This document shows, in pieces, positions 8,423 through 49,621 of a stretch of DNA of 64,000 nucleotides. How positions within the stretch are numbered: the stretch's first letter is position 1; every line of letters begins with the position of its first letter. The DNA comes from Escherichia phage S143_2, in sequence record MZ189261.1. One strand, written 5' to 3'. The notes under the pieces are model-generated. The model saw only the letters and a list, made by a program, of their open reading frames with translations. It searched no databases and had not been told where the DNA came from. Position numbers and translations under genes: made by a program.

Positions 8423-8452
8423 ATTATACTCCAACCATCCTTGGTTGTAAAC
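8423..8452 (-). promoter_or_regulatory. early promoter cassette class A
   Basis: minus-sense GTTTAC, 18 nt with caaccaaggatggttg hairpin, TATAAT; same cassette at 49593 and 50613. Confidence 0.55.
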
Positions 8453-13974: not shown

Positions 13975-14211
13975 TTAACCACTTACTGGTGTAGGGGTAA
14001 ACATTGCAGCGTTCTTAGTTTTCCAAGTTGCTGCATCAGAAACGACATCAGAATAAGCTGCCTTTTCTGATGGAAAGATTTGGTAATGAGAATCTGCAAT
14101 CCGATGTTCGTTTGAATAAATCTCAAACGGTACAGAAACTTCCATACCTTTAACTTCTTTGCCTTCACCTGCAGGATGCGTAAAGGTTTTGATATTAACG
14201 TAACCACCCAT
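13975..14211 (-). CDS. soc: small outer capsid protein Soc
   Basis: 78 aa, GYVNIKTF...HYQIFPSEKAAYS matches Soc. Confidence 0.8.
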   Translation of the reverse strand: MGGYVNIKTFTHPAGEGKEVKGMEVSVPFEIYSNEHRIADSHYQIFPSEKAAYSDVVSDAATWKTKNAAMFTPTPVSG

Positions 14212-14242
14212 AATTAACTCCTTTGTTGTTTAATTACAGGTG

Positions 14243-14250
14243 TATTTATA
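14243..14250 (-). promoter_or_regulatory. late promoter TATAAATA upstream of soc
   Basis: exact TATAAATA on minus strand about 30 nt before soc ATG. Confidence 0.55.
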
Positions 14251-14256
14251 ACTTAA

Positions 14257-14778
14257 TCAGTAACCATTATCCTGGCGTTCAAAGTTGTGTTGGTTTTTCA
14301 AGTAGTAAAGTTTAAAGATTTCTTCAGCAGAAAGACCCAGACCTTGGAACATGTTCAGAACGAAGTGCAGAATATCAATCATCTCAAATTTAATTTCAAG
14401 CTGGTCTTCAGGAGACAGTTCATCGATACGACGATTACGATATTCAGCATGTTGTGCTTTCCACGGCTTCCATACACTGCTGGCGGCTTTTTCACCATTG
14501 CTCATACCACCAAGTGAAGTCAGCAGTTCACGGAATTCATCATCAATATAATCTTTCTGATTACGCAGCCAATCAACAACGTCGCCTGCAGTGGCCAATT
14601 CATCAGGATGTTTGTTATGTTCAGGCTTGTCATTTGCCAAACGAACCTGTAAAGATTTCTGCATATCAAGCATTACCTGAAGTGGGTCTTTATCTTCGTG
14701 AATCAGAGCATTAAAATAAGCTTCTTCTGCTTTATCAACACCAGAAATAAGTTGTGAACATTCGTTAAAGTGTGCCAT
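14257..14778 (-). CDS. 56: dCTP pyrophosphatase (dCTPase) gp56
   Basis: MAHFNEC start, MazG-like, conserved LANDKPEH / ETAGDVVDW blocks; start set to ATG behind GGAAA SD. Confidence 0.85.
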   Translation of the reverse strand: MAHFNECSQLISGVDKAEEAYFNALIHEDKDPLQVMLDMQKSLQVRLANDKPEHNKHPDELATAGDVVDWLRNQKDYIDDEFRELLTSLGGMSNGEKAASSVWKPWKAQHAEYRNRRIDELSPEDQLEIKFEMIDILHFVLNMFQGLGLSAEEIFKLYYLKNQHNFERQDNGY

Positions 14779-14866
14779 TATTTTTCCTTTCAATTCAGTA
14801 TAAGAGAGTTAATTCTAACATTAATTTTATAAAGCGTAATAAATAATAGGTAACTAAGGAGATATT

Positions 14867-15064
14867 ATGTTTAAACTTCCATCGTTAATCAATGCTATTA
14901 AAGGCAATAAAAAGAAAACTGCTATCGCCGCAATAGTTGTAGGTGGCATTATTTCATGGAACTTCGGTATCGCACCATTATTAGTTGCTAATGGTATTAT
15001 AGTTCCTTCTGTTCCATTGGATACTGTAGTTGATTTAGCCTTTGCTATTATAGGGCTTGTTTAA
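14867..15064 (+). CDS. small hydrophobic membrane protein (only convincing plus-strand gene)
   Basis: AAGGAG SD 7 nt before ATG; two hydrophobic segments; fills the gap between genes 56 and 61. Confidence 0.5.
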   Translation: MFKLPSLINAIKGNKKKTAIAAIVVGGIISWNFGIAPLLVANGIIVPSVPLDTVVDLAFAIIGLV

Positions 15065-16083
15065 ATCTTCGAATAACGAGATAATCTCATTTTAGCATGC
15101 AACCCACTTGAAATATTCTGTTTCATATATTCTAAAATTTCTTGTGGTGTTGCATTTTCTTTCATTACCATATCATTCACATCCTTTGAACTCCATGGAG
15201 CTCGGTCCCAGAACATGACACGTTCGCCTGCATCAACTAATCGCTTCATGCGAGCTATAGTATCCGGATGCCTAGGTTCATTATCCATTACCCATACCCG
15301 ACGTTCTTTAAATGGTACCACATCTAAATCTATTGAGCCGCCTGTAATAGCGATTGCATTGGGTATGAATAAACTATCAATAGGGCCTTCCATTACCCAG
15401 ACGTCTCCTTCCTTAACACGTTCAACACCATAAATTTTTGTTGCAGACTCGAACGCTTTAATAGTGATATATTTCTGAGGAGCATCTTTACGAAGTGCAC
15501 GTCCTTGGAATGACTCAGCCTTCCCGTCTTTATTAAAAATAGGAATCACTAAACGTGGTTCGGGAATCTCTTTCTTATACGTACCAGGTTGAATCTTGTT
15601 GACCAATTTAGGCCATTCTAATGTGAACCATAATCTGTTCCACGATTCTTTAGGAATACACCGAGACTTAACATATTTCACAATAGGATGCTCTTCGGGC
15701 AGCTTGTCCAGACGAGAACAAGACGGCAAAGAATTTATAGTCTTTTTCTCCGGTTCTGGTTTATGTTCAGGAACCTTTTCAATCTTTGGTTCCATTCTAG
15801 CTTTTTCTTTACGAACTTCCATTAGATATTCGCGATAAAGCTCTTCATCATACTCTTTTAAGTATCCGGAAATTGTATTGTGGTATTGGCAATTATAACA
15901 ATGTACATTACCAGGAGTACCGCCATAATACCATCCGCGAGCTTTCATTGCATCTGTCTGGGAGTCGCCACAAACTGGACATCGAAATGTTAATTTAAAT
16001 GTGCTTGAATTATTGATTTGTCTAAAACGAGGTAGGTGAGAAAACGCGCGATAAGCAAATTCATTATCTATCCATTCAGCCAT
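15061..16083 (-). CDS. 61: DNA primase gp61
   Basis: zinc ribbon CPVCGDS...HCYNC, Toprim motifs (VMEGPIDSLF, VMDNEPRHPD), 340 aa. Confidence 0.9.
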   Translation of the reverse strand: MAEWIDNEFAYRAFSHLPRFRQINNSSTFKLTFRCPVCGDSQTDAMKARGWYYGGTPGNVHCYNCQYHNTISGYLKEYDEELYREYLMEVRKEKARMEPKIEKVPEHKPEPEKKTINSLPSCSRLDKLPEEHPIVKYVKSRCIPKESWNRLWFTLEWPKLVNKIQPGTYKKEIPEPRLVIPIFNKDGKAESFQGRALRKDAPQKYITIKAFESATKIYGVERVKEGDVWVMEGPIDSLFIPNAIAITGGSIDLDVVPFKERRVWVMDNEPRHPDTIARMKRLVDAGERVMFWDRAPWSSKDVNDMVMKENATPQEILEYMKQNISSGLHAKMRLSRYSKI

Positions 16084-16122
16084 AGTATTCTCCAGAGGCC
16101 TTAAATTAATAAGGCCATCTTA

Positions 16123-16590
16123 TCACAACTTATTAATATTTACTTTAATTCGCTTTCTTTTCTTGGAAGGAATTTGTTCTGGACCTTTATTTACTACTGC
16201 ACCTGTAGTTGTTCCTGATGCAATAGCTTGAGGGCTGCCACCTGAATCACCAGCAACCATATCCTCAAATAAAGGGAGTTCTTTAAATATTTCTTTCTGC
16301 TGTTCTTCCGTAATGTTATAGCGTGAAGCTACAGCACTCCAGGCAGACATCATTGAGGCCATTCCATTAAGACCTGGAACAGTGCTCATCATTCGCTTCA
16401 TTGAACGAACTGAAGCATGAAAAGGTGTATAAGCCGCTTTCTCTTCAGGAGTGGAAGGACGTTTAAGAACACTTCCACGTTCATCGATGATTTTGGCTTC
16501 GTATGCTTTCCATTCGGTAAAAGGTTTTTGCATTAGTCGAATAAACTTATATGCGTAAACAGAATCTATTGCAGTGTTAATAATACCCAT
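16123..16590 (-). CDS. hypothetical protein with basic C-terminal tail
   Basis: ORF track trimmed to ATG (MGIINT) behind AGGAGG SD. Confidence 0.5.
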   Translation of the reverse strand: MGIINTAIDSVYAYKFIRLMQKPFTEWKAYEAKIIDERGSVLKRPSTPEEKAAYTPFHASVRSMKRMMSTVPGLNGMASMMSAWSAVASRYNITEEQQKEIFKELPLFEDMVAGDSGGSPQAIASGTTTGAVVNKGPEQIPSKKRKRIKVNINKL

Positions 16591-16609
16591 AGGTACCTCC
16601 TGAGTATAT

Positions 16610-16807
16610 TTAATCAATTACAAAGATTGCTTTGTCACCATTTATATCCGTGACTTCATATGTAGTGCCTTCATACTGTGGAATATTCCAAATTACACCA
16701 TCATTAGCTTTTACGCTAATATGGCATTGGTGTTTTGAAACAACTTCGTAATCTTCAAAACTTGTAAAAACACTAATTTTAGAACCAGTGCAAATTGCAG
16801 TAGTCAT
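16610..16807 (-). CDS. hypothetical protein (65 aa)
   Basis: ORF track. Confidence 0.45.
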   Translation of the reverse strand: MTTAICTGSKISVFTSFEDYEVVSKHQCHISVKANDGVIWNIPQYEGTTYEVTDINGDKAIFVID

Positions 16808-16808
16808 T

Positions 16809-17468
16809 TTAACCTCGATTCATAAATGCATTAAATATTTGGTCATCAACAGAAATTTCTAATTCAGCTTCAATTGTTTCAGCCTTTTCTTCAGGTGGTA
16901 ATTCGTATCCACACACTACAATTTTTTCATCGATATCAAAATATACAGAAGCAATACGATTAATGTTATTTTCAGTTAAGTCTAAATCAACATCAACATC
17001 TTTTTGACCTTCACTTAAAGGATAACTAATACGGGTTATTTTATTATCTTTAACAAAGAGTCCACCAACATACTCTGTACTACGTTTGAAGTTTACACGT
17101 TTCCGAATTGAAAGATATGATGCATCTTTACCGTGAGCTCGGCTCATAGGACATAATGAATAGCTAGAATAAGAGATGTCAAATCCTACACCTTCAATAT
17201 GAGCCAACGTGTCATGATTAAACCAATTATAATCATATGCCAAATCCATTATATTGTAATATGTGAAAGGCACCGGATTAACATCATACGTTGTACCTTT
17301 AAAATCTGCCCAGGCAATGATTTCGTTATCTTTAACAATTACAAAAATTACACCAATATGATATCCGTTATTATTTTCGTTCGGCGTTATATTATAACAT
17401 TGTGCATTAGGAAATTTACCATATTTAAATGGCGCATTTTTGTGCATATAATAAATCATATTATTCAC
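16809..17468 (-). CDS. hypothetical protein (219 aa)
   Basis: ORF track. Confidence 0.55.
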   Translation of the reverse strand: MNNMIYYMHKNAPFKYGKFPNAQCYNITPNENNNGYHIGVIFVIVKDNEIIAWADFKGTTYDVNPVPFTYYNIMDLAYDYNWFNHDTLAHIEGVGFDISYSSYSLCPMSRAHGKDASYLSIRKRVNFKRSTEYVGGLFVKDNKITRISYPLSEGQKDVDVDLDLTENNINRIASVYFDIDEKIVVCGYELPPEEKAETIEAELEISVDDQIFNAFMNRG

Positions 17469-17754
17469 CTGTGATTTCGGTTACGATATCTTTGTTATCG
17501 AAATTAGGGTCACAATACAAAACATAATTGTACTGCATGATACCGCCAGACTTAAGTTGTTCAACAACTTTATTAACCATATTAGGACGGTCTCGTTTAG
17601 TGATGTTCATGATATCAGAGAAGATTTGTTGTTCAACATCTTCTTGATTTGCAGTCATTGACCACTCACAGAGGTCTTTATCATAACCTGCCGTAACTGG
17701 AGCTGGTGCACATGATACTGCGAGTAAGATTGCTGCCAATGATAACCTTTTCAT
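17461..17754 (-). CDS. sp: periplasmic protein with signal peptide, Spackle (Sp)-like
   Basis: 97 aa, N-terminal signal sequence; size and Cys pattern fit T4 Sp. Confidence 0.5.
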   Translation of the reverse strand: MKRLSLAAILLAVSCAPAPVTAGYDKDLCEWSMTANQEDVEQQIFSDIMNITKRDRPNMVNKVVEQLKSGGIMQYNYVLYCDPNFDNKDIVTEITGE

Positions 17755-17774
17755 TTTAACTCCTTAGTTGATTT

Positions 17775-17813
17775 GATAGGACTACTATACTATAGTCCAT
17801 CTATAATGTAAAC
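17775..17813 (-). promoter_or_regulatory. early promoter with stem-loop
   Basis: minus-sense GTTTAC, 18 nt, TATAGT; ggacta...tagtcc hairpin around -10. Confidence 0.5.
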
Positions 17814-17817
17814 AAGT

Positions 17818-18066
17818 TTATTCTTTTTCGCGAATAATAATTACTTGTTGAGGCTGTAGAGCAGATTTCTTTTCGGCAACGATAGACCAAATTAAAGTTC
17901 CAATCCAACCAACCATCGTCCAGTTAAAGAGTAAAGATACGAAGAAGATTGCTGTTGTGCTTTTTGTGCCACGAATAAGTGCGATTACCCAAGGCAACAT
18001 GTAAATGATGATTGAACCAATACCTGCGATTAAAACTGCTACTGAACTAGCTACGAATAATTCCAT
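17818..18066 (-). CDS. imm: superinfection immunity (Imm)-like membrane protein
   Basis: two TM segments, IALIRG...WT.VGW motif typical of the Imm family. Confidence 0.55.
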   Translation of the reverse strand: MELFVASSVAVLIAGIGSIIIYMLPWVIALIRGTKSTTAIFFVSLLFNWTMVGWIGTLIWSIVAEKKSALQPQQVIIIREKE

Positions 18067-18080
18067 GTTAATTTCCTCTT

Positions 18081-18124
18081 GATTTGTTATGTTTATAGTA
18101 TCTTGGTTTAACTTTAGTGTAAAC
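18081..18124 (-). promoter_or_regulatory. early promoter
   Basis: minus-sense GTTTAC, 18 nt, TACTAT, GAGGAA SD. Confidence 0.5.
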
Positions 18125-18127
18125 CAA

Positions 18128-18496
18128 TTAATTAAATTTGTTTAAACGTTCAATACACTGGATGTAGTTATTCGCGATTTGTTTCTGGGTAGGCTCTTTA
18201 CCAGTTGTTTCAACATAGCGAATGAATGCGATTTCAGTAGCCTGTAAGCAATGTTCTTTAACGCGCTGTTCTTTTGACATAGCTACAGTATCAGAATCAC
18301 GATAACGTTGAGCATGAGCATCAGCTTGAATCATTCGATTACCTACAGTAACCGGGTCTTCCACTTCAACTTTAGGTTGTTCATACTGTTTAACATTCGG
18401 ATTGTAAATCAGTTGGCCGACGTTATTAGGAATAAAGCCATGGGCACCACATCCTGTTAATCCAAATACCATTGCTAAAGCGATTAATTTTTTCAT
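18128..18496 (-). CDS. putative lipoprotein (122 aa)
   Basis: signal peptide with LTGC lipobox. Confidence 0.55.
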   Translation of the reverse strand: MKKLIALAMVFGLTGCGAHGFIPNNVGQLIYNPNVKQYEQPKVEVEDPVTVGNRMIQADAHAQRYRDSDTVAMSKEQRVKEHCLQATEIAFIRYVETTGKEPTQKQIANNYIQCIERLNKFN

Positions 18497-18502
18497 TTCA
18501 AT

Positions 18503-18554
18503 TTCCTCTGTAGTTGATAGAAAGATAGTAACACAGTATGTGGTGCTTGTAAAC
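18503..18554 (-). promoter_or_regulatory. early promoter
   Basis: minus-sense GTTTAC, 18 nt, TACTAT, GAGGAA SD. Confidence 0.5.
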
Positions 18555-18556
18555 AG

Positions 18557-18769
18557 CTATTTTAAACTTTTGCGAAATTTGCGTTTTTCTTGACGAATCT
18601 GTCGTTTAGTCGGACGTACAGCAAATTTAACGAAGTCCACTTTGCCGTGTGGAAACTTTTCAGATGCTTCACAGTCCATCATTAGTTCCCATCCTTCCAG
18701 AATAAGAGCTTTCCATTGTGTAGTTGATGCAAATTCGTATGTTGATGGTTTAAACACAGTTGAATACAT
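18557..18769 (-). CDS. small protein with basic C-terminal RPTKRQIR tail
   Basis: trimmed to ATG (MYSTVF); C-terminal motif shared with 46987..47157. Confidence 0.45.
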   Translation of the reverse strand: MYSTVFKPSTYEFASTTQWKALILEGWELMMDCEASEKFPHGKVDFVKFAVRPTKRQIRQEKRKFRKSLK

Positions 18770-18770
18770 A

Positions 18771-18962
18771 TTATCCTCTGAAATCAGCTTCAAAAACTTT
18801 CTCGTCATTAACAAATGCTTTAACTAATGCTTTGTTCACTTCAGCAAGTTGTACCGCAACCCACTCGATTTCTTCACGGTCACCTGATAACATGATATCT
18901 TTAGTGAACGTATTATCATTTTTAAACCAGCCAATAAAAGTAACTTTAGTTAATTTGCTCAT
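18771..18962 (-). CDS. dmd: Dmd-like antitoxin (discriminator of mRNA degradation)
   Basis: 63 aa, FIGWFKNDNTFTK...AEVNKALVKAF...FRG pattern; start trimmed to ATG (MSKLTK). Confidence 0.6.
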   Translation of the reverse strand: MSKLTKVTFIGWFKNDNTFTKDIMLSGDREEIEWVAVQLAEVNKALVKAFVNDEKVFEADFRG

Positions 18963-19276
18963 ATTTCCTCGCAAAATGCCCATTCAGCGTGATAAACTGT
19001 AGCACCTTTAGTATTATTCATTTGAACTACATCTACCGGAGAAATTACTCGATAGAGACGTGGTTCACCTCCATAAGAGCGTGCTGCTCGTCCTGCATAA
19101 ATCTTTGCTAAACCGATATCTTCGGTAAAGAATACACGATCCAAGTTTTTCTTACGTCCTGTTTCAGACAGAACTCCTGTTTCTTCAGGAGGACAAAGCA
19201 TGTTTTCGATGTTAGCTGAACTACTTGAACCGTGATAAAAAATCTTAAATTCTGCTTTACAATCGATGGTTTTCAT
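18959..19276 (-). CDS. hypothetical protein (105 aa)
   Basis: ORF track. Confidence 0.5.
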   Translation of the reverse strand: MKTIDCKAEFKIFYHGSSSSANIENMLCPPEETGVLSETGRKKNLDRVFFTEDIGLAKIYAGRAARSYGGEPRLYRVISPVDVVQMNNTKGATVYHAEWAFCEEI

Positions 19277-19280
19277 TTTG

Positions 19281-19331
19281 TTCTCCAGTAGTTGATAGGT
19301 CTATAATAACACAACTACTGGAGAAGTAAAC
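19281..19331 (-). promoter_or_regulatory. early promoter with perfect stem-loop enclosing -10
   Basis: minus-sense GTTTAC, 17 nt, TATTATAGACCTATC; arms ttctccagtagttg / caactactggagaa. Confidence 0.6.
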
Positions 19332-19706
19332 TTAAAAACGTAATTTAGATATATCTGCGTTGATTTCGTTTTGGTTTGCGTCGTATGCAATTAAACGAAC
19401 CGCTTTAGATGGGTCATTCAATGCATAGAAATGATGGAACATTGCTCGAACGATATCACCATTTACGAGTTCTACCTGGATAGGAGAACCTTTTTCGAGT
19501 TGGAAATGTTCATAAGCTTTGATGGTTCGTAGATAATCAAGTTTTTGATTTCCAGCTCCAACTATTTGTACGATACGTTTGCCTGTGTTTTCCATACGAG
19601 ATACAATAGTTTTAGGAGCAAGAATAACGTAGGTTGCCAGCGGAGAAACTACTTCAACAGTTGTGTTTTCGGTGATTGCAGTAAAAATTGCTTGAGACAT
19701 ATTCAT
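19332..19706 (-). CDS. hypothetical protein (124 aa)
   Basis: ORF track. Confidence 0.5.
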   Translation of the reverse strand: MNMSQAIFTAITENTTVEVVSPLATYVILAPKTIVSRMENTGKRIVQIVGAGNQKLDYLRTIKAYEHFQLEKGSPIQVELVNGDIVRAMFHHFYALNDPSKAVRLIAYDANQNEINADISKLRF

Positions 19707-19735
19707 AATGTTTTCCTCTTGGTTGGTGTAAGTTC

Positions 19736-19765
19736 ATCATATCATGCCTAGAGGAAGATGTAAAC
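19736..19765 (-). promoter_or_regulatory. early promoter
   Basis: minus-sense GTTTAC, 18 nt, TATGAT. Confidence 0.45.
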
Positions 19766-19767
19766 CC

Positions 19768-19794
19768 CGAAAGGAGACCGAAGTCTCCTTTTTA
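19768..19794. terminator. hairpin ggagac-cgaa-gtctcc after gene 41
   Basis: perfect 7-bp stem with tetraloop; T-run on plus side, weaker U-tract on minus. Confidence 0.4.
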
Positions 19795-21237
19795 TTAAAA
19801 TTTTAACTCATTGGCTAAGCTATCTAGGTCAGCCCGTGTTGTTTTGGCTTTACCTACGCGTTCCGTACGATTCACCTCTGCCTGACGCATCTGAGCACCT
19901 GCGTTTTCATTTACCGTGTTAGGTGTGTTCATTCCTTCTTGCTCAATCTCAATCCATTTCTGGTTGCCTTTACGTACACCCATCAGGAATTTATTCCATT
20001 TATTCTTATCACCATATCGTGATTTGATTTGTTTGATAAGTTGTTGTTCAGCTTGTGCAAGTTCTTCGGTTTCAATTACAGCCAACATGAAATCTGCCGT
20101 TGCCGGTAAACCTGCTGATTCTGCAATATCGCTCATGTTCATATCCGAAGCATCCCATGCTGCACGTCCTACTTGAGCTGCAGTCCATAGAACTGTTTCA
20201 GATTCTACTGCTAATGCACGAAGTTCTTCTGCGATAGCTTTAACTAATGTGTAGCTATTTTCAGTATAAACTCTGATACGACAAGACCCACAAATACCTA
20301 AGTAATCAACCATGATTACGGATGGCACAAAGTTCTTCTTAAGTTTTAACTCATTAAGCAATGCACGAAATGTATTAGCATTAGCTCCACCAGTAGGATA
20401 CTGTTTAACTACTAAACGTCCTAATGTGGATTTTGAACGCCATTTTTCCATCTTGGCTTTATATTCAGCATAAGATACGTTGCCATCATCGATATCATCG
20501 AGCGATACGTCAAGCATGTTTGCATCTATACGCTTAGCACAAACTTCTTCAGCCATTTCCATGGAAATATAAAGAACATTATGACCTGTTTGAAGATAAT
20601 CTGCAGCAAGTGAACAAAGGCCTAAAGATTTACCAACGTTAACACCGGCCATTAAAACATTCAGTGTACCGGTTTCAGCACCACCTTTAGTGATTTTATT
20701 CAAAATGTTTAATTTGAACGGGACCTTACGTGCTTTGTTCAGATAAGAAAGCCAGCGTGCTTCGTAGTCTTCCATCCAGTCATGTCCAACATAACTATCA
20801 AACGAAATTGAAAGTGCTTGACGCATAATATCAGGAATAGCTCCTACGTCAGGCATTTTCTTGTTACGTTGTTCTGGAGGTAATTCAGCATTAGACTGAA
20901 TCTCAATGATTTTGGATGTAGCATTATACATCGCTTTTTGCTGGACATATTTCTCAGTTTCTTTAACCAACCATTCGTGGTCTTCAGGAGTATCAGCCAA
21001 TTTTTCAATTAGGTCTGAAGTTCCTTTATATTCGACTTCAGTTAAAGAACTGTTATCTAAAGCCACCTTTAACGCATTGATAGACGGCATTGCATTATAT
21101 TCGTTAACGTGGCTCTTTATAATTTTAAAGACATTTTTTGCCGGTCCACGCTCAAAATACTCAGAATCCATATAAGGCCAGACCTTAGAAAAATAAGCCT
21201 GGTCGTATACTAGATGAGACAAAATAATTTCTACCAC
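19795..21237 (-). CDS. 41: replicative DNA helicase gp41 (DnaB-like)
   Basis: 480 aa, Walker A GVNVGKS, DnaB-family architecture. Confidence 0.9.
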   Translation of the reverse strand: MVEIILSHLVYDQAYFSKVWPYMDSEYFERGPAKNVFKIIKSHVNEYNAMPSINALKVALDNSSLTEVEYKGTSDLIEKLADTPEDHEWLVKETEKYVQQKAMYNATSKIIEIQSNAELPPEQRNKKMPDVGAIPDIMRQALSISFDSYVGHDWMEDYEARWLSYLNKARKVPFKLNILNKITKGGAETGTLNVLMAGVNVGKSLGLCSLAADYLQTGHNVLYISMEMAEEVCAKRIDANMLDVSLDDIDDGNVSYAEYKAKMEKWRSKSTLGRLVVKQYPTGGANANTFRALLNELKLKKNFVPSVIMVDYLGICGSCRIRVYTENSYTLVKAIAEELRALAVESETVLWTAAQVGRAAWDASDMNMSDIAESAGLPATADFMLAVIETEELAQAEQQLIKQIKSRYGDKNKWNKFLMGVRKGNQKWIEIEQEGMNTPNTVNENAGAQMRQAEVNRTERVGKAKTTRADLDSLANELKF

Positions 21238-21246
21238 GATAACTCC

Positions 21247-21588
21247 TTAAAAGAATTTAAATTTTTTCTTGGTCCGTTCATTAAAAGCTTGTTGTACTTG
21301 CATTGTAACACATTTTTCAACATGTGGTGCAAGTTCTGCTTTTCTGTCTTGGTCAAGAACTGCAAAGTCCATTACGATTTTACCATCAACCCAGTCTAGT
21401 TTTGTAATATAGACTATATGATGAGAACCATCTTCAAGTGTAATCAGAATCTCTTGAATGACATTTTCCATTGCTGAACGGATAATTTTAAGAGATTCAT
21501 TAAACACTCGTTCTTTGCGAATGTCTTCCCCTTCCGAAGAAGGGGATTCATCAACGATTTCTAGATTTAAATCATCAAGATTATTCAT
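21247..21588 (-). CDS. small protein at gp40 position
   Basis: ORF track; start probably at ATG overlapping the uvsX stop. Confidence 0.4.
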   Translation of the reverse strand: MNNLDDLNLEIVDESPSSEGEDIRKERVFNESLKIIRSAMENVIQEILITLEDGSHHIVYITKLDWVDGKIVMDFAVLDQDRKAELAPHVEKCVTMQVQQAFNERTKKKFKFF

Positions 21589-22753
21589 CGAAATCTTCCA
21601 TTTCGTCAAGGTCGTTTTCTATATCTGCTGCAGACGGAGCATCAGAAGTTTTAACCGGAACTTTAGTTGTTGCTTTGCAATTAATAAGGTCGTTAACAGC
21701 GTCATCAACTTCTTTAATAGAAGAGATAGCACCTAGTTTATATTTAGTTTCAATTGCATCTCGGAAAGGTTTGTGTTTAAACAAAGGTCCCCAGAATTCT
21801 ACACAATCAGTAGCTTTAGCACGCCACGATTTCTCTTCACGAATCATTTCGCCTGTTTCTTCGTCAAGGAATTCACGAGCATACCAACCGGCTTTAGGCT
21901 TAACCACAAAACCGATTTCAGTTGCCATTTCTAACAAGCCACTGAATGGGTCAATACCACCATCGAAATTAACCGTGATTGGGAAAGTAGATTTCTCTTT
22001 AACTGTACGAGATTTTTCTGCTTTCAACGTGAAATCATAACCGGTCAATTCTGTACCTTCTTTAACCTGACGTTTAGAGATAAAGAATACAGTGTTAGCA
22101 GAATAAAGAATACCTGTACCACCACCCATAATCTCTTTAGGATATAGTCCGCCGATTTCCATTGCTGTATGGTTGATTGCAACACATGGAATATCTTTAA
22201 TAGTCAGATAAGGAGTCACAATGCGGAACAGAGATTTAAGTGCCTTAGCACGAGACATATCACCTACAACTTTCTCGTTCAACGCATCTTCGGTTTCTTT
22301 CTTAGATGCAGTATTACCGATTGAATCGATAAAGATAATAACTTTATCACCACGTTCAATCGCGTCAAGCTGATTAGTCATATCAACTTTAAGTTGTTCG
22401 ACAGATTGAATCGGAGTATGAACTACACGGTCTAAATCAACACCCATTGAACGAAAATAAGATTCTGAAGCACCAAATTCTGAATCATAGAACAAACAAA
22501 TTGCATCTTTATATTTCTTCATATATGCTGCAACCATGGTCAGCCCAAACAACGTTTTAAAGTGTTTAGAAGGAGCAGCAAAAATAGTTAAGCCTGATTG
22601 CAACCCGGCATTCAGTGCACCACCTAATGCAATATTCAACATCGGAATACGAGTAGGGACTTCATCGCGATTATTAAACAACTTAGACTTAGTCAAGTCT
22701 GCAGTCATTTTAGAAGTAGAAGCTTTAATCAGACGAGATTTTAAATCAGACAT
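21581..22753 (-). CDS. uvsX: UvsX recombinase (RecA-like)
   Basis: 390 aa, RecA-fold P-loop region, acidic C-terminus. Confidence 0.9.
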   Translation of the reverse strand: MSDLKSRLIKASTSKMTADLTKSKLFNNRDEVPTRIPMLNIALGGALNAGLQSGLTIFAAPSKHFKTLFGLTMVAAYMKKYKDAICLFYDSEFGASESYFRSMGVDLDRVVHTPIQSVEQLKVDMTNQLDAIERGDKVIIFIDSIGNTASKKETEDALNEKVVGDMSRAKALKSLFRIVTPYLTIKDIPCVAINHTAMEIGGLYPKEIMGGGTGILYSANTVFFISKRQVKEGTELTGYDFTLKAEKSRTVKEKSTFPITVNFDGGIDPFSGLLEMATEIGFVVKPKAGWYAREFLDEETGEMIREEKSWRAKATDCVEFWGPLFKHKPFRDAIETKYKLGAISSIKEVDDAVNDLINCKATTKVPVKTSDAPSAADIENDLDEMEDFDE

Positions 22754-22806
22754 TGTATTTTTCCATAGGCATCATTATATTTTACTCATGTTTAAAAGAT
22801 AAGACG

Positions 22807-22834
22807 ATTATATACTAAGGGTTATACAGCATTT
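22807..22834 (-). promoter_or_regulatory. possible MotA-box middle promoter upstream of uvsX
   Basis: minus-sense TGCTGTA, 12 nt, TATAAT. Confidence 0.3.
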
Positions 22835-22853
22835 AAAAACTTTAAACAGGCTC

Positions 22854-23402
22854 TTAACGAGCCCATTTGATAATTTCTGTAATCAAATTATTACGTTCGC
22901 TTGCATTAAATCCTATAACTTTGTTAGCACCATCATGATTAAGTAATTGATACGTTTGGATTTTGTTATGAATTGCAAACTCTTCAAAATATGAAATGAC
23001 TGTATTAAAACCAAATGAAGACAAAGTAATAAGGTCGTCTTCAAAACTTTCAGTCATTTCGTTACGTGTTAAAATAATTGTGAACACATCATGGTTTTGG
23101 CAAAGACGAACATAATCCTGTTCATAAACGTCAAGAACCGAGTCCACATCTTGTCGAATACGTCCATAAACCCAGTTACTAATATATCCACGGTCTAACA
23201 GATAAATCTTAGTAGGGTCTAAATAATTCAACATCGTTTCGAAACAGCCAACTTCATTTCGAGACTTAACATCGAAACGTCCATCAACTGTTCGTTTAGG
23301 GAAATCAATCTTTACATATCTTTCACTAATTTCCATTATGTCATTAATGAAAGTTGTTTTACCAGCATTATCCGGGCCATCTACTAAAATAATTTTAGCC
23401 AT
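22854..23402 (-). CDS. P-loop nucleotide kinase, thymidylate-kinase-like
   Basis: Walker A DGPDNAGKTT and LLDRGYIS (DRY-like); 182 aa; at the bgt position. Confidence 0.5.
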   Translation of the reverse strand: MAKIILVDGPDNAGKTTFINDIMEISERYVKIDFPKRTVDGRFDVKSRNEVGCFETMLNYLDPTKIYLLDRGYISNWVYGRIRQDVDSVLDVYEQDYVRLCQNHDVFTIILTRNEMTESFEDDLITLSSFGFNTVISYFEEFAIHNKIQTYQLLNHDGANKVIGFNASERNNLITEIIKWAR

Positions 23403-23403
23403 T

Positions 23404-24303
23404 TTATTCCTCGATTACGACATCTTCATATTTAGGTATATTATACGGTGAAGAAATTAAAGCATTAAAGTAGATGAACTCACCAAGACCTGGATGGAAT
23501 ACTTCTTCAGGATTTTCGAAATATTGAATCTTCGGACGTCCTTTAAGAATTTGATAGTACTCAGTTTTAGTTGGTTTAAAAATTCGAATCAACGCTTCTT
23601 CAGGATACTTATTTCTGTCGAAGCTATTATTTGGATCGGTTATATAAAGCGGTTGGCCTAATTGAATTGCACATTCAACCACTTGTTCAAAACGATAGCA
23701 CGGGTCACTAATTCGAAATGGATGAAAAATACCATCTAGATGAATAGGAGCCAAATCACCTACAAGACGCTGCATGATGGAAGGACGTATAACTTTCTGC
23801 GTTACGATAATCTTATTACCATCTGCACCTGCGTTAACCAGCACTTCTTTTTGACGTTCATTCAACACAGTAGTTTGAAGTGAACGATTAACCGACAACA
23901 TATCAGTTTTTAAGAATTCGTCAATATAAAAACGTGGTTTATTAGGGTCTGCAGTGATATTGAAATTGAATTCCACATCAAAAGCGCCGTCATATCCGGT
24001 GATATCTGTGATTAGAAAATCACAATCATAATAAGCAATTAATGAATCAACCACAAATTCATTTTCAGACCAGAAATATTTACGAGTGTTATACGCGTTA
24101 TCTTTATACCATAATGGAACAAACTTAAATTCTGGGAAAAGACGTTCACATTCTTTAATATCAGATGCATTACGTGGATATGTAATCACATCACCAGGAT
24201 TAGCACGGTGCAAATGAAGTTGGAAGTTGCCATCCTTAAGGATAGCGTACTGTCCAGTTTCATAAGACCGCATACTCAAGATAGGTACGCGGAAAATAGC
24301 CAT
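23404..24303 (-). CDS. hypothetical protein (299 aa) at the bgt position
   Basis: start overlaps stop of gene 42 (TAATG); no motif recognised. Confidence 0.5.
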   Translation of the reverse strand: MAIFRVPILSMRSYETGQYAILKDGNFQLHLHRANPGDVITYPRNASDIKECERLFPEFKFVPLWYKDNAYNTRKYFWSENEFVVDSLIAYYDCDFLITDITGYDGAFDVEFNFNITADPNKPRFYIDEFLKTDMLSVNRSLQTTVLNERQKEVLVNAGADGNKIIVTQKVIRPSIMQRLVGDLAPIHLDGIFHPFRISDPCYRFEQVVECAIQLGQPLYITDPNNSFDRNKYPEEALIRIFKPTKTEYYQILKGRPKIQYFENPEEVFHPGLGEFIYFNALISSPYNIPKYEDVVIEE

Positions 24304-25019
24304 TAGTCAAGGAATCCTTTAACATAATCAAAATCACGTTCAAACACATGGGCACTTACCATGGTATGAGTATAATCACCAACTTCTACACCGCATTCGT
24401 TAGCGATATAATGAAGTAATTTTCCTTGGAGATAAAAATCCAACTGCATAACAACAGCACAGTTCTGAGAACGCATATGACAGTGGGTATAAAGCTTACC
24501 ATCACGAATATAATAAGTTACTGAGTCAGTACATGGATATTCAAGCGTTTCGTCTGAATCAAGCAAAGCCTGATCAGAACTTTCTAGAATTTGGAACACA
24601 ACTCTTCGAGAGTTAGGCTTCTCTTTAAGTTCTTTTAGAAGAGCTGGTAATTGGGCCGCAATGCGAGGACCATAGAAAGTGTTGAAGTTCGCCGGCAAAA
24701 CATCTGATTTTGGTTTAGAAATAAATTTAGCGACATTAGGATATGCCTTAAACGCTTCTTCTGCGTTGGTACCACCAGAAATCATAAACTTCCAGAAGTC
24801 TTCGGCATATTCATAAGAGATGCGGTTAATACGTGGGTCAGTCATTTTGAATGATGACGGAGTGTCAACAACTACTGTCATAGACCCAATTTCATTACAA
24901 CGTCCAATACGAGAATCAGTTACGAATTCCGGGTTTTCTAAAATTTCACGATTGACTGCTTTAAATGCGGTTTGAAAATCTGCGGCTTTGATATATTTCA
25001 TTGTGTTATGTTTTCCCAT
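24303..25019 (-). CDS. 42: dCMP hydroxymethylase-like (thymidylate synthase family)
   Basis: 238 aa; EYPCTDSVTYYIRD...MRSQN resembles the catalytic-Cys region of T4 gp42; synteny. Confidence 0.65.
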   Translation of the reverse strand: MGKHNTMKYIKAADFQTAFKAVNREILENPEFVTDSRIGRCNEIGSMTVVVDTPSSFKMTDPRINRISYEYAEDFWKFMISGGTNAEEAFKAYPNVAKFISKPKSDVLPANFNTFYGPRIAAQLPALLKELKEKPNSRRVVFQILESSDQALLDSDETLEYPCTDSVTYYIRDGKLYTHCHMRSQNCAVVMQLDFYLQGKLLHYIANECGVEVGDYTHTMVSAHVFERDFDYVKGFLD

Positions 25020-25038
25020 GTTTACCTCAATACAATTT

Positions 25039-25064
25039 ATTATATACTCAATTCGTAAAGCTTA
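25039..25064 (-). promoter_or_regulatory. possible MotA-box middle promoter upstream of gene 42
   Basis: minus-sense AGCTTTA, 11 nt, TATAAT, GAGGT SD. Confidence 0.3.
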
Positions 25065-25200
25065 TTTGAATTTCTTGACAATGTTGATATAACGTAAAGC
25101 TTCAGCATCGATACTTCCAAGAACACTATGAAGAAATGCATCAGCGTAGTATTCCAATTAAACAGGTTCTTTAATCACTTTAGCCGCTTTAGTTTCAAAC

Positions 25201-25221
25201 AGGCCCATCAGGGCCTTTTTA
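25201..25221 (+). terminator. plus-strand hairpin plus T5
   Basis: aggccc-atca-gggcct followed by ttttt on plus strand. Confidence 0.3.
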
Positions 25222-25297
25222 AGAATTTGTTCGATGCTGTTAATTTTCATAGCCAAAATCTCTTCGTTAAGTTGGTGGTTAAAAGTTTTTCTAGAAA

Positions 25298-26458: not shown

Positions 26459-26513
26459 TTTTGCATCTCGCGTTAATTGTTGCGATGGTTTTTTGCAGGT
26501 CTTACTTAAATTA

Positions 26514-26900
26514 TTATAGATTCGGTTTATATGATTTAAATGTTTCGAATTCGCCTTTATTCATAAGAGCTTTGAATTCGTCAGGACGCATAGCTTTGTC
26601 GTCGATAATCCAATCATATACTGGTTTATGTGTTAGCAAATTATGGTACTTCAATCCAATGTTTGCCAAGTTCTGAATCAGACTTGGGAGAATGTCAATT
26701 GCTATACGACCAGGACCGACTGACTTCATACCGCGAGCAGTGTAAAGCGTTATGGTATGCCCTGCATCATACAGGGCATTAATGGCAGACACCATTTCGA
26801 CGTCTGGTTTGAAGTTCACGTAATCACGATTGTTATTCCACTCTGTTATACAATCATCGACATCAAAACAAAGATTAAGCATGTTTTTTACACGGTGCAT
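26514..26900 (-). CDS. HAD-superfamily phosphatase-like protein
   Basis: FDVDDCIT near N-terminus, TLYTARG, WIIDDKA; start overlaps upstream stop. Confidence 0.45.
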   Translation of the reverse strand: MHRVKNMLNLCFDVDDCITEWNNNRDYVNFKPDVEMVSAINALYDAGHTITLYTARGMKSVGPGRIAIDILPSLIQNLANIGLKYHNLLTHKPVYDWIIDDKAMRPDEFKALMNKGEFETFKSYKPNL

Positions 26901-28585: not shown

Positions 28586-28626
28586 GTTGTGGTCCTCATT
28601 GGTAAGTAGGAGTATTGTACACTATT

Positions 28627-28770
28627 CTAGTTAAAGCATTCATACTTTGCTTGTAGTCCAATCATAATCCATCCGGTTATAAGAGTCGGAATCATTACTG
28701 GAGCCGTTAAGCTCCAGTAGATAGTCATGACAAGCATCAATAGTAAAAGTCCTATTGTTATTGCTTTCAT
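28627..28770 (-). CDS. small hydrophobic protein (47 aa, below cutoff)
   Basis: ATGA overlap with upstream stop; hand translation MKAITIGLLLLMLVMTIYW... Confidence 0.3.
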   Translation of the reverse strand: MKAITIGLLLLMLVMTIYWSLTAPVMIPTLITGWIMIGLQAKYECFN

Positions 28771-29402
28771 TGTTCGCCTCGTAACATGGCACCTAGTGCA
28801 CCGCCAGGGTGGAACTTAAGGAAGTCATTAGAGGTAAATCCACGTTCAGACGAAAGGTTGATAGCAAACGTATCGATAAGCGCTAACAACAATGTAGTGG
28901 ACATAGTCGGAGCCAGAGAATTCTCATCAACCTCTACTGCGATGCCTGTACAGAAAGAGTAATCAAAAAGGGCTTCATTTTCTTGTGGAATGTCTGGGTT
29001 ACAATGCAACAGAATCTGTTTGACGTTCGGACGAATCATTTTAAGATGCTTAGCCACGCCTATCATTTCTTCAGTTTTACCAGAACGACTAATATGAATC
29101 AACACATCATTAGGCGCAATGAATCCTGCATCACCGTGAGAATAATGCCCGGTGTTCAAGTACATACTCGGGATACCAAGTGAAGCAAATGTCTCAGAAG
29201 CTTTAGTTGCAATATTAGCATTCTTACCCACACCTGTAATAATTACACGACTTTCATAATTACTAAGTCCAGGGCGTCGAAGAGTTTCTAGAATAGCATT
29301 ATAACGAGCAGGGTTTTGACTAATTACTTTGGCCATAGCGGCCAAAGAAGAAGCTTGTTTTATGATTGCGTCAATAGCGATAGTAATAGGAGTAGTTTTC
29401 AT
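28767..29402 (-). CDS. SIS-domain sugar-phosphate isomerase, KdsD-like arabinose-5-phosphate isomerase
   Basis: VIITGVGKN, HGDAG, APTMSTT, FHPGGALG motifs line up with the KdsD SIS domain; 211 aa. Confidence 0.7.
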   Translation of the reverse strand: MKTTPITIAIDAIIKQASSLAAMAKVISQNPARYNAILETLRRPGLSNYESRVIITGVGKNANIATKASETFASLGIPSMYLNTGHYSHGDAGFIAPNDVLIHISRSGKTEEMIGVAKHLKMIRPNVKQILLHCNPDIPQENEALFDYSFCTGIAVEVDENSLAPTMSTTLLLALIDTFAINLSSERGFTSNDFLKFHPGGALGAMLRGEQ

Positions 29403-29442
29403 ATTTCTCTCATTTAATTAGTTTACCGTCCATGTCATTATA

Positions 29443-49563: not shown

Positions 49564-49592
49564 AATATTTTCCTCTCGTTAAGATAGAAAGA

Positions 49593-49621
49593 TTATACTC
49601 CAACCATCCTTGGTTGTAAAC
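49593..49621 (-). promoter_or_regulatory. early promoter cassette class A
   Basis: minus-sense GTTTAC, 17 nt with caaccaaggatggttg hairpin, TATAAT. Confidence 0.55.

What the first reader, a model, noticed from the sequence alone, without database searches (positions are those of the whole stretch)
16123..19706. Block of small genes including sp-like, imm-like and dmd lies between genes 41 and 61, unlike T4
In T4, as I recall it, gene 61 directly follows gene 41 and the small genes (61.1 to dmd) lie between 61 and 56, with imm between 42 and 43. Here primase 61 abuts gene 56 and about 3.6 kb of small genes, with imm-like and sp-like genes adjacent, sits between 41 and 61. The imm slot between 42 and 43 is occupied by the sugar cassette. 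Three early promoters lie inside the block.
Basis: partly seen in the sequence, partly recalled or inferred. Interest (0 to 1): 0.4.

Follow-up and report, generated by a model that had tools for sequence, protein, structure and literature searches.

The report
Ordinary T-even accessory block; imm relocated

Summary
The window is a Mosigvirus (RB69-like T-even phage), about 98% identical to more than 150 deposited genomes.

**Observation.** It holds. Ten small minus-strand genes fill 16123-19706 between genes 41 and 61, and profile searches confirm Sp, Imm and Dmd.

**Interpretation.** "Unlike T4" is wrong. T4 RefSeq reads 41-dmd-61.4-sp-61.2-61.1-61-dam-56, so T4's small genes also lie between 41 and 61. 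The same is true in Gaprivervirus, Dhakavirus and Jiaodavirus.

**Real differences from T4:**
- imm.1-imm sits between 61.4 and sp instead of downstream of gene 43.
- There are extra genes: a 124-aa ORFan, a 105-aa ADP-ribosyltransferase-fold protein overlapping dmd, and a 65-aa ORF. Gene 61.1 is also longer.
- There is no dam.

RB69 RefSeq shows the identical order.

**The old imm slot.** A SIS-domain gene of the known arabinosyl-hmC cassette now sits there, flanked by gene 43 and a surviving 42.1-like ORF.

**Promoters.** Five T4-early-type promoters (GTTTAC-N16-18-TAnnnT), not three, punctuate the block.

**Likely mechanism (inferred).** Gap comparisons fit promoter-cassette (PeSL-type) recombination as the way modules were inserted.

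**Verdict.** Ordinary, already known, low interest.

The parts
19795..21237 (-). Gene 41 replicative helicase; upstream boundary of the block
   Evidence: The ORF is. It is 85% identical to T4 gp41 and 99% to RB69 gp41. Related phage records annotate it as helicase.
19736..19791 (-). PeSL-like cassette: a 9-bp hairpin with a UUCG loop (19770-19791), followed by the early promoter GTTTACA-N17-TATGAT (19736-19765)
   Evidence: The fold has z = -2.65. The hairpin and the -35/spacer are homologous to the single 41>orf105 gap of Dhakavirus IME341.
19332..19706 (-). 124-aa ORFan (RB69 ORF041c); absent from T4, VR7, IME341 and LilPanda
   Evidence: PHROG 10668 is the only family match. Only 2 homologue clusters exist among 5.8 billion proteins. 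The 52%-identical homologue also sits upstream of a 105-aa gene, Dmd and Sp. The structure model is unusable, pLDDT 44.
19303..19331 (-). Early promoter GTTTACT-N16-TATTAT, embedded in a 14-bp inverted repeat
   Evidence: Motif hits are. The fold has z = -5.35. The gap is near-identical to the IME341 41>orf105 promoter and 5'UTR, alignment score 38.
18959..19276 (-). 105-aa ADP-ribosyltransferase-fold protein (RB69 ORF040c); its stop overlaps the dmd start (ATGA)
18771..18962 (-). dmd (discriminator of mRNA degradation; antitoxin against RnlA/LsoA)
   Evidence: Pfam Dmd E 3.2e-21. PDB chains 5i8j (E 1.9e-33) and 5hy3_B match. It is 56% identical to T4 Dmd.
18557..18769 (-). Gene 61.4 homologue (DUF7279)
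   Evidence: Pfam DUF7279 E 5e-20. It is 60% identical to T4 gp61.4. The start codon follows the mar005P1 annotation.
18525..18554 (-). Early promoter upstream of imm.1 (GTTTACA-N17-TACTAT)
   Evidence: Motif hits are. Its best matches are the promoters downstream of gene 43 that drive imm in IME341 (score 28, against 10-19 for other gaps) and imm.1 in T4 (42/60 identical).
18128..18496 (-). imm.1 (DUF5481), with a lipoprotein-type N-terminus (LTGC); relocated relative to T4
   Evidence: Pfam DUF5481 E 2.4e-9. It is 33% identical to T4 Imm.1, which lies next to gene 43 in T4.
18095..18124 (-). Early promoter upstream of imm; T4 has only an 11-bp gap at this position
17818..18066 (-). imm (superinfection immunity membrane protein); relocated relative to T4
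   Evidence: Pfam Imm_superinfect E 1.9e-15. It is 64% identical to T4 Imm over the full length. There is a single copy in the window and one place per record in 1245 phage records.
17784..17813 (-). Early promoter upstream of sp (GTTTACA-N17-TATAGT), with the -10 inside a hairpin
17461..17754 (-). sp (Spackle; periplasmic inhibitor of the gp5 tail lysozyme; superinfection exclusion)
   Evidence: Pfam T4_Spackle E 1.9e-42. PDB 6x6o matches at E 3e-39 over residues 1-97. It is 65% identical to T4 Sp.
16809..17459 (-). Gene 61.2 = adfA (anti-DarT factor A); RB69-type R164 allele
   Evidence: Pfam AdfA E 2.6e-119. Residue 164 is R, as in RB69, whereas T4 has H. The significance of the allele comes from PMC11257639.
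16610..16807 (-). 65-aa ORF (RB69 ORF033c); absent from T4, present in VR7 and IME341
   Evidence: PHROG 3249. It is 66-68% identical to the VR7 and IME341 homologues.
16123..16590 (-). Gene 61.1, long form (155 aa); only the C-terminal ~40 aa match the 54-aa T4 gp61.1
   Evidence: PHROG 2086 matches the full length and PHROG 1823 the C-terminus. The C-terminal 40 aa are 75% identical to T4. The gene is split in the RB69 reference by a 1-nt indel at 16440.
15061..16083 (-). Gene 61 primase; downstream boundary of the block
   Evidence: It is 74% identical to T4 gp61 and 99.7% to RB69 gp61.
28627..28770 (-). 42.1-like 47-aa membrane ORF; a relic marking the ancestral imm slot downstream of gene 43
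   Evidence: tblastn gives 60% identity over 30 aa to the T4 imm-42 intercistronic region (E 2e-10). It is 57% identical to VR7 gp42.1, which directly follows imm there. The RB69 RefSeq note says "similar to T4 42-imm intercistronic region".
28767..29402 (-). SIS-domain gene (RB69 ORF055c; candidate arabinose-5-phosphate isomerase); occupies the place that imm(.1) has in other genera
   Evidence: Pfam SIS E 1e-10. Its position is between gene 43 (29443-32154) and the 42.1-like ORF. Thomas et al. 2018 describe the cassette.

Best explanation
The region is the standard T-even "hyperplastic" accessory block between helicase gene 41 and primase gene 61. It is a string of small early genes for counter-defence (Dmd, AdfA/gp61.2, a small ADP-ribosyltransferase-fold protein) and superinfection exclusion (Sp, Imm, Imm.1). 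Transcription runs from sigma-70-type T4 early promoters placed in the short intergenic gaps.

**Position.** The block's position is the same as in T4.

**What is specific to the RB69 lineage (Mosigvirus)**
- The imm.1-imm module lies between 61.4 and sp instead of just downstream of DNA polymerase gene 43.
- There are a few extra ORFs, and dam is missing.

**Most likely history (inferred).** Promoter-plus-gene modules were inserted by recombination between the repeated early-promoter/stem-loop cassettes (PeSLs) that flank them.
- imm.1-imm arrived with its own gene-43-type promoter.
- At the old site, a SIS-domain gene of the arabinosyl-hmC cassette replaced it and left the 42.1-like ORF behind.

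Each module carries its own early promoter, so the move should not change when the genes are expressed.
For: **T4 and other genera have the same block position**
- The T4 map has 41-dmd-61.4-sp-61.2-61.1-61-dam-56 and 43-imm.1-imm-42.
- RB69 RefSeq has exactly the window's order. About 150 phage records carry the whole 6.3-kb stretch at 95-99% identity.
- The block lies between 41 and 61 in VR7, VR25, LilPanda, IME341 and a metagenomic relative as well.

**The imm position next to gene 43 is the common one**
- imm lies directly downstream of gene 43 in Tequatrovirus, Gaprivervirus, Dhakavirus and Jiaodavirus.
- A 42.1-like relic remains next to gene 43 in the window.
- imm is single-copy.

**Protein identities**
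-.

**Promoters and recombination signatures**
- The promoter motif occurs 20 times on the minus strand and once on the plus strand, against about 1.1 expected. Five sites lie at 17.8-19.8 kb, each in an intergenic gap.
- A hairpin plus promoter follows gene 41.
- The single 41>orf105 gap of IME341 matches both gaps that flank orf124 in the window.
- The promoter before imm.1 best matches the promoters downstream of gene 43 in IME341 and T4.
- The PeSL mechanism and the T4-type consensus TTTACW-N17-TAYWAT are published (PMC2839356 and PMC4122927).

**Mosaicism**
- Per-gene identity alternates between T4-like and Dhakavirus-like across the region, so there have been repeated exchanges.
Against: - All early promoters of this phage resemble each other. 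Several share the spacer TTCTCC..GTTGTGTTAT. Assigning gap orthology from 55-90 nt alignments is therefore weak. The imm.1>imm and imm>sp gaps have no clear counterpart.
- Only the gap after gene 41 has the full terminator-like hairpin plus promoter of a canonical PeSL. Two gaps show no significant structure.
- No promoter or transcript was tested experimentally here.
- The survey covered one or two genomes per genus and was not exhaustive. A Bragavirus carries an Imm-like gene at yet another site.
Confidence: 0.9

Rival explanations
1. One reading: relative to T4, the whole small-gene block (61.1 to dmd) has been transposed from between 61 and 56 to between 41 and 61.
For: None from the tools.
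Against: - T4 RefSeq places dmd, 61.4, sp, 61.2 and 61.1 between 41 and 61, and only dam between 61 and 56.
- tblastn of the window's proteins on the T4 locus gives the same collinear order.
- Four other genera agree.
Confidence: 0.01
2. imm.1-imm did not move within one genome. The lineage gained a T4-type imm.1-imm cassette in the 41-61 block from another phage. Separately, it lost the gene-43-adjacent copy when the 43-uvsX segment carrying the arabinose cassette was exchanged. That is two independent recombination events with different partners.
For: - The region is strongly mosaic. Genes 43, 42 and uvsX are 79-90% identical to Dhakavirus and only 25-68% to T4.
- Genes 40 and 41 are 80-85% identical to T4 and 44-68% to Dhakavirus.
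- Imm is closer to T4 (64%) than to Dhakavirus or Gaprivervirus (49-50%).
- Dhakavirus keeps imm beside gene 43 together with a related sugar cassette. The cassette alone therefore does not displace imm.
Against: - The promoter in front of imm.1 resembles the promoters downstream of gene 43. An intragenomic move explains this equally well.
- No donor with an sp-adjacent imm was found outside Mosigvirus.
- With these data the two scenarios cannot be separated. Both use the same recombination mechanism.
Confidence: 0.4
3. The Mosigvirus arrangement (imm next to sp) is ancestral, and the gene-43-adjacent position in T4 and other genera is derived.
For: Imm and Sp both act in superinfection exclusion, so an ancestral functional cluster is conceivable.
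Against: - Four genera share 43-(imm.1)-imm-(42.1).
- The window still carries the 42.1-like ORF that follows imm elsewhere. Here it follows a SIS gene.
- Blocks in Dhakavirus, Gaprivervirus, Jiaodavirus and a metagenomic relative have sp without imm.
Confidence: 0.04

Closest known systems
Phage RB69 (Mosigvirus RB69, NC_004928) genes RB69p030-p042
   Same: The gene order is identical: 41-ORF041c-ORF040c-dmd-61.4-imm.1-imm-sp-61.2-ORF033c-61.1-61-ORF029w-56. Most proteins are 97-100% identical. The arabinose cassette between 43 and uvsX is the same.
   Different: Single-nucleotide indels in the RB69 reference split 61.1, frame-shift part of gene 40, and split ORF046c/047c and ORF053c/052c. 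These genes are intact here. The ORF053c/052c case is a published sequencing error. Dmd is only 90% identical.
Phage T4 41-61 interval (dmd, 61.4, sp, 61.2, 61.1) and 43-42 interval (imm.1, imm)
   Same: The flanking genes and the order of the shared genes are the same. Transcription is leftward and early. There are early promoters before dmd and sp.
   Different: - T4 keeps imm.1-imm beside gene 43.
- T4 lacks the 124-aa, 105-aa and 65-aa ORFs.
- T4 has a 54-aa gp61.1.
- T4 carries dam between 61 and 56.
- The T4 block is about 1.6 kb, against 3.6 kb here.
PeSL (promoter-early stem-loop) mobile regulatory cassettes of T4-type phages (Arbiol et al. 2010; Comeau et al. 2014)
   Same: Repeated early promoters, some with adjacent stem-loops, flank small nonessential ORFs in a hyperplastic region. 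The T4/PST-type consensus TTTACW-N17-TAYWAT fits. The ORFan orf124 is bracketed by two related promoter copies.
   Different: Only one gap has the terminator-like hairpin upstream of the promoter. In two others the hairpin encloses the -10 element. No mini-circles or recombination products were observed here, so the role of PeSLs is inferred.
Predicted p0068-family ART + Dmd pair of enterobacterial phages (Iyer, Burroughs, Anantharaman, Aravind 2022)
   Same: A small HY-[EDQ]-type ART-fold gene lies immediately upstream of dmd and overlaps it.
   Different: Family assignment to p0068 was not tested by profile here. Pfam gives no hit. Toxin/antitoxin behaviour is a published prediction and has not been shown.

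Membership tests
T4 Spackle (PF25676) | Full-length similarity to T4 Sp above the curated threshold | tested here: met
   144 bits against a cut-off of 27, covering positions 1-96 of 96. PDB 6x6o matches at E 3e-39 over residues 1-97. It is 65% identical to T4 Sp.
T4 Spackle (PF25676) | N-terminal signal peptide and the two conserved cysteines of the mature periplasmic protein | tested here: met
   The alignment shows a hydrophobic N-terminus ending AG|YDKDLCEW and a conserved ...VLYCD. This is read directly from the sequence.
T4 Spackle (PF25676) | Binds and inhibits the gp5 tail lysozyme | not testable with these tools
   This is a biochemical property. It was shown for T4 Sp in PMC7677548 (listed).
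Imm superinfection immunity (PF14373) | Profile match above threshold and full-length similarity to T4 Imm | tested here: met
   56.9 bits against a cut-off of 27.9. It is 64% identical to T4 Imm over 83 aa. PHROG 1039 matches at E 1e-29.
Imm superinfection immunity (PF14373) | Blocks DNA entry of superinfecting phage | not testable with these tools
   This is a phenotype only. It is known for T4 Imm (note in the T4 RefSeq record).
Dmd (PF17587) | Profile match and similarity to structurally solved Dmd proteins | tested here: met
   75.9 bits against a cut-off of 27. PDB 5i8j matches at E 1.9e-33 and 5hy3_B (annotated antitoxin Dmd) at E 2.6e-18.
AdfA anti-DarT factor A (PF23813) | Full-length profile match | tested here: met
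   396.6 bits, covering positions 1-211 of 211.
AdfA anti-DarT factor A (PF23813) | Histidine at position 164, reported to enable neutralisation of DarT1 | tested here: not met
   Residue 164 is arginine, as in wild-type RB69, whereas T4 has histidine. The significance of the allele comes from PMC11257639.
PeSL regulatory cassette | Strong sigma-70-like early promoter in an intergenic gap of a hyperplastic region | tested here: met
   Five GTTTAC-N16-18-TAnnnT sites lie in five gaps. The window has 20 sites on the minus strand, against about 1.1 expected.
PeSL regulatory cassette | Adjacent stable stem-loop acting as terminator or attenuator | tested here: inconclusive
   The stem-loop is clear after gene 41 (z = -2.65) and around the -10 of the orf105 promoter (z = -5.35). 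It is weak or absent in the other three gaps.
PeSL regulatory cassette | Recombination between cassettes produces indels or mini-circles | not testable with these tools
   There is only comparative evidence: orf124 is bracketed by two copies related to the single IME341 promoter.
ADP-ribosyltransferase superfamily (HY-[EDQ] clade) for the 105-aa protein | ART fold | tested here: met
ADP-ribosyltransferase superfamily (HY-[EDQ] clade) for the 105-aa protein | Conserved H, Y and E/D/Q catalytic positions | tested here: inconclusive
   H15, Y60 and E103 are invariant in 32 homologues. Their structural equivalence to the catalytic triad was not checked residue by residue.
ADP-ribosyltransferase superfamily (HY-[EDQ] clade) for the 105-aa protein | NAD+ binding, ADP-ribosyl transfer and a defined target | not testable with these tools
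   No sequence-profile hit was found in Pfam, NCBIfam or PADLOC.

The most novel reading that the evidence does not exclude
The move of imm.1-imm next to sp could have been a rescue event. It would be coupled to the replacement of the 43-uvsX segment by the arabinosyl-hmC cassette. The result would be a single, separately promoted superinfection-exclusion island (lipoprotein Imm.1, membrane Imm, periplasmic Sp) that is inherited as a unit. Such an island might contribute to the known exclusion of T-even phages by RB69. Beside it, the ART-fold protein and Dmd would form a phage-borne toxin-antitoxin-like pair that T4 lacks.
Probability: 0.12. Interest if true: 0.35.

Novelty: already known. Interest (0 to 1): 0.1.

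Why it matters
It matters little as a discovery.

- **Gene order.** It is annotated in the RB69 reference genome and in about 150 related genomes. The supposed contrast with T4 came from a misremembered map.
- **The imm difference.** The relocation is real and gives a tidy example of how T-even phages shuffle self-contained promoter-plus-gene modules between hyperplastic regions while the replication genes stay collinear.
- **What the block holds.** It concentrates several counter-defence and exclusion genes: Dmd, AdfA, Sp, Imm, and an untested ADP-ribosyltransferase-fold protein coupled to Dmd. These are of current interest for phage-host conflict and for choosing therapeutic phages.

Tried and rejected
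- **Whole-block transposition relative to T4.** Rejected on the T4 annotation and tblastn synteny.
- **Sugar cassette as the direct cause of imm displacement.** Weakened, because Dhakavirus IME341 has a related cassette and still keeps imm beside gene 43.
- **orf124 as a relative of the cassette's SIS or phosphoheptose-isomerase-like proteins.** This was suggested by a weak PDB hit, 3trj at E 0.058. BLASTP gives E 9.5 and E 1.1, so it is rejected.
- **orf124 structure prediction.** With three sequences the model has pLDDT 44 and is unusable. No fold search was run on it.
- **NCBIfam and PADLOC scans of the ten block proteins.** Nothing useful was found.
- **PDB sequence search for the 105-aa protein.** No hit. 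Only the fold comparison was informative.
- **Foldseek against AFDB50.** The library was unavailable.
- **Literature search for an explicit description of the imm relocation.** Nolan et al. 2006 and Thomas et al. 2018 do not mention it.
- **Assigning the imm.1>imm and imm>sp promoters to T4 counterparts.** The pairwise scores do not rise above the promoter-family background.
- **The consensus terminator scan.** One site was found in 8 kb, inside orf105, against 4.7 expected. It is not meaningful.

Full report
**What the window is.** The stretch 15000-21300 matches 723 phage records. About 150 of them cover at least 80% of it at 95-99% identity. All of these are RB69-like T-even phages (PTK, JS09, HX01, mar005P1 and others; genus Mosigvirus). 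All genes of interest are on the minus strand, so transcription runs from high to low coordinates.

**Checking the observation.** Ten ORFs fill 16123-19706 between gene 41 (19795-21237) and gene 61 (15061-16083). In transcription order, with Pfam and PHROG results, they are:

| Gene | Coordinates | Assignment |
|---|---|---|
| 124-aa ORF | 19332-19706 | PHROG 10668 only |
| 105-aa ORF | 18959-19276 | PHROG 2110 |
| dmd | 18771-18962 | PF17587, E 3e-21 |
| 61.4 | 18557-18769 | DUF7279 |
| imm.1 | 18128-18496 | DUF5481 |
| imm | 17818-18066 | PF14373, E 2e-15 |
| sp | 17461-17754 | PF25676, E 2e-42 |
| 61.2 = AdfA | 16809-17459 | PF23813, E 3e-119 |
| 65-aa ORF | 16610-16807 | PHROG 3249 only |
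| 61.1 | 16123-16590 | PHROGs 2086 and 1823 |

- Sp and Dmd also match solved structures of T4 and RB69 Spackle and Dmd.

**Checking the interpretation against T4.**
- The T4 reference (NC_000866) is annotated 41 (20612-22039), dmd, 61.4, sp, 61.2, 61.1 (18966-19130), 61 (17935-18963), dam, 56. On the other side of uvsX it reads 43, imm.1, imm, 42.
- tblastn of the window's proteins on that locus gives the same collinear order.
- T4's small genes therefore lie between 41 and 61, exactly as here.
- The same block position holds in Gaprivervirus VR7 and VR25, Jiaodavirus LilPanda, Dhakavirus IME341 and a metagenomic relative.
- Gene 61 lying next to gene 56, with a small opposite-strand ORF between them, is also the common state. 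T4 is the one that carries an extra gene, dam, at that point.

**What really differs from T4.**
- imm.1-imm lies between 61.4 and sp rather than downstream of gene 43.
- Two genes follow gene 41 that T4 lacks (124 aa and 105 aa). A 65-aa ORF lies between 61.2 and 61.1.
- gp61.1 is 155 aa long. Only its last ~40 residues correspond to T4's 54-aa protein.
- dam is absent.
- These changes grow the block from about 1.6 kb in T4 to 3.6 kb here.
- RB69 RefSeq shows precisely this order and names imm, imm.1 and sp in these positions. The arrangement has therefore been public and annotated for a long time. I found no paper that comments on it explicitly.

**Which imm position is derived.**
- imm sits directly after gene 43 in T4, VR7, VR25, IME341, LilPanda and GF. 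That is four genera.
- imm occurs once per genome in all 1245 matching phage records and once in the window.
- In the window, the 47-aa ORF at 28627-28770 is homologous to the T4 imm-42 intercistronic region (60% identity over 30 aa, E 2e-10). It is also homologous to VR7 gp42.1 (57%), which follows imm in those phages. The RB69 record carries the same remark.
- Here that ORF follows a SIS-domain gene (28767-29402) that abuts gene 43. The local order is therefore 43 - SIS - 42.1 where other genera have 43 - (imm.1) - imm - 42.1.
- The cassette itself is the module that Thomas et al. 2018 linked to arabinosyl-hmC DNA in RB69. It comprises SIS, a 561-aa nucleotidyltransferase-like protein, a U32-like protein, gene 42 and others.
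- Dhakavirus has a related cassette and still keeps imm beside gene 43. The cassette alone therefore does not force imm out.

**Promoters.**
- The T4-type early motif GTTTAC-N16-18-TAnnnT occurs 20 times on the minus strand of the window and once on the plus strand. About 1.1 per strand are expected.
- Five sites lie in the five intergenic gaps of this block, starting at 19765, 19331, 18554, 18124 and 17813.
- The gap after gene 41 has a 9-bp UUCG hairpin immediately before the promoter. The promoter of the 105-aa gene sits within a 14-bp inverted repeat.
- These features fit the published PeSL cassettes of T4-type hyperplastic regions, including the T4/PST-type consensus TTTACW-N17-TAYWAT.

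**How the differences probably arose (inference).**
- In Dhakavirus IME341 the 105-aa gene follows gene 41 across a single gap.
  - The hairpin and the -35/spacer of that gap match the window's 41>orf124 gap.
  - Its promoter and 5'UTR match the window's orf124>orf105 gap almost base for base.
- The ORFan orf124 is thus bracketed by two related promoter copies. This is the signature that Arbiol et al. described for PeSL-mediated insertion.
- The promoter in front of imm.1 best matches the promoters downstream of gene 43 that drive imm in IME341 (score 28, against 10-19 for unrelated gaps) and imm.1 in T4 (42/60 identical). This suggests that the module travelled with its own promoter.
- The caveat is that all early promoters of this phage are similar, so these short alignments are suggestive and no more.
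- Per-gene identities alternate between T4-like and Dhakavirus-like, which shows repeated exchange across this region:

| Gene(s) | Identity to T4 | Identity to Dhakavirus IME341 |
|---|---|---|
| 40, 41 | 80-85% | 44-68% |
| 43, 42, uvsX | 25-68% | 79-90% |
| 105-aa gene | no homologue | 89% |
| 56, soc | 46-71% | 89-90% |

- I cannot decide whether imm.1-imm moved within one genome or was gained at one site and lost at the other.

**How it works.**
- Established knowledge from T4:
  - Sp inhibits the gp5 tail lysozyme of superinfecting phage.
  - Imm blocks DNA entry.
  - Dmd neutralises the RnlA and LsoA toxins.
  - AdfA can neutralise DarT1.
- Shown here: each gene or short group of genes in this block has its own early-type promoter and ribosome-binding site.
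- Inferred here: the block therefore behaves as a set of position-independent early cassettes, and moving imm.1-imm next to sp should not alter its timing.

**Side findings.**
  - Its stop codon overlaps the dmd start codon.
  - Iyer et al. 2022 already predicted such an ART + Dmd pair.
- AdfA here carries R164, the RB69 allele reported not to neutralise DarT1.
- Several genes that are split in the RB69 reference are intact here, because of single-base differences.

**Verdict.** The remaining difference is a known genus-level trait of RB69-like phages. It is explained adequately by the established modular, promoter-cassette shuffling of T-even hyperplastic regions. Interest is low.

Noticed in passing
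window 18959-19276 (minus strand), overlapping dmd at 18959-18962: A 105-aa protein, absent from T4, has a confident ADP-ribosyltransferase fold and invariant H15, Y60 and E103. It is 88-89% identical to its Dhakavirus and Gaprivervirus homologues, although the neighbouring gp41 is only 67-68% identical. About 140 homologue clusters exist across Straboviridae. Iyer et al. 2022 predicted an ART toxin + Dmd antitoxin pair of this kind, which I did not find tested in the papers I searched.
   Followed up: yes
window 16809-17459 (minus strand): AdfA (gp61.2) carries arginine at position 164 (RB69 numbering), where T4 has histidine. R164 is the allele reported not to neutralise DarT1. This phage may therefore be DarTG1-sensitive unless its adfN (gene 30.3) is intact, which I did not check.
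   Followed up: partly
window 14867-15064 (plus strand); T4 locus L002 4748-4936: A 65-aa hydrophobic ORF lies on the strand opposite to all neighbouring early genes, between 61 and 56. It has a strong AAGGAG ribosome-binding site and a late-promoter-like TAATAAATA at 14838-14846. Homologues are annotated in RB69 (ORF029w), VR7 and LilPanda. T4 has a 52%-identical homologue (E 1e-18) in the dam-61 gap that its RefSeq record does not annotate.
   Followed up: partly
window 16440; 21340, 21396, 21416; 23760; 27932 (compared with RB69 L003): Single-nucleotide indels relative to the RB69 reference explain several differences. RB69 has 61.1 split into two ORFs, a frame-shifted stretch in gene 40 (only 79% protein identity amid 99-100% neighbours), and ORF046c/047c and ORF053c/052c split. 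The ORF053c/052c split is a published sequencing error, so the others may be errors too.
   Followed up: partly
window 13975-32154: There is strong mosaicism. Genes 43, 42, uvsX, 56, soc and the 105-aa gene are 79-90% identical to Dhakavirus IME341. Genes 40, 41, 61, imm and 61.4 are closer to T4. Apparent breakpoints lie near the uvsX/40 boundary and around gene 61/56.
   Followed up: partly
window 8423-8452 and 49592-49621 (minus strand): Two early-promoter matches 41 kb apart are identical over all 30 nt (GTTTACAACCAAGGATGGTTGGAGTATAAT). Several other promoters share the spacer TTCTCCTC..GTTGTGTTAT (7428, 57198, 60828, 19331). These are possible recombination substrates.
   Followed up: no
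window 16084-16122 (minus strand): A stable hairpin (GGCCUUA...UAAGGCC, -13.5 kcal/mol, z = -3.1) lies between the 61.1 stop codon and the gene 61 ribosome-binding site. T4 has only a 2-nt gap there. It could be a terminator/attenuator or a translational control element for primase.
   Followed up: no
window 19332-19706 (minus strand); locus L012 90-467: The 124-aa ORFan has only two homologue clusters in 5.8 billion proteins. The distant one (52% identity) sits in the same context (ORFan, 105-aa gene, Dmd, Sp) in a metagenomic T4-like contig whose block lacks imm.
   Followed up: yes
locus L009 (Proteus phage Pm5461) 8001-8192: An Imm-like gene in a Bragavirus lies in a different hyperplastic region, between the rI/tk-like genes and the nrdC-like genes. 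This shows that imm-family genes are mobile among accessory regions of Straboviridae.
   Followed up: no
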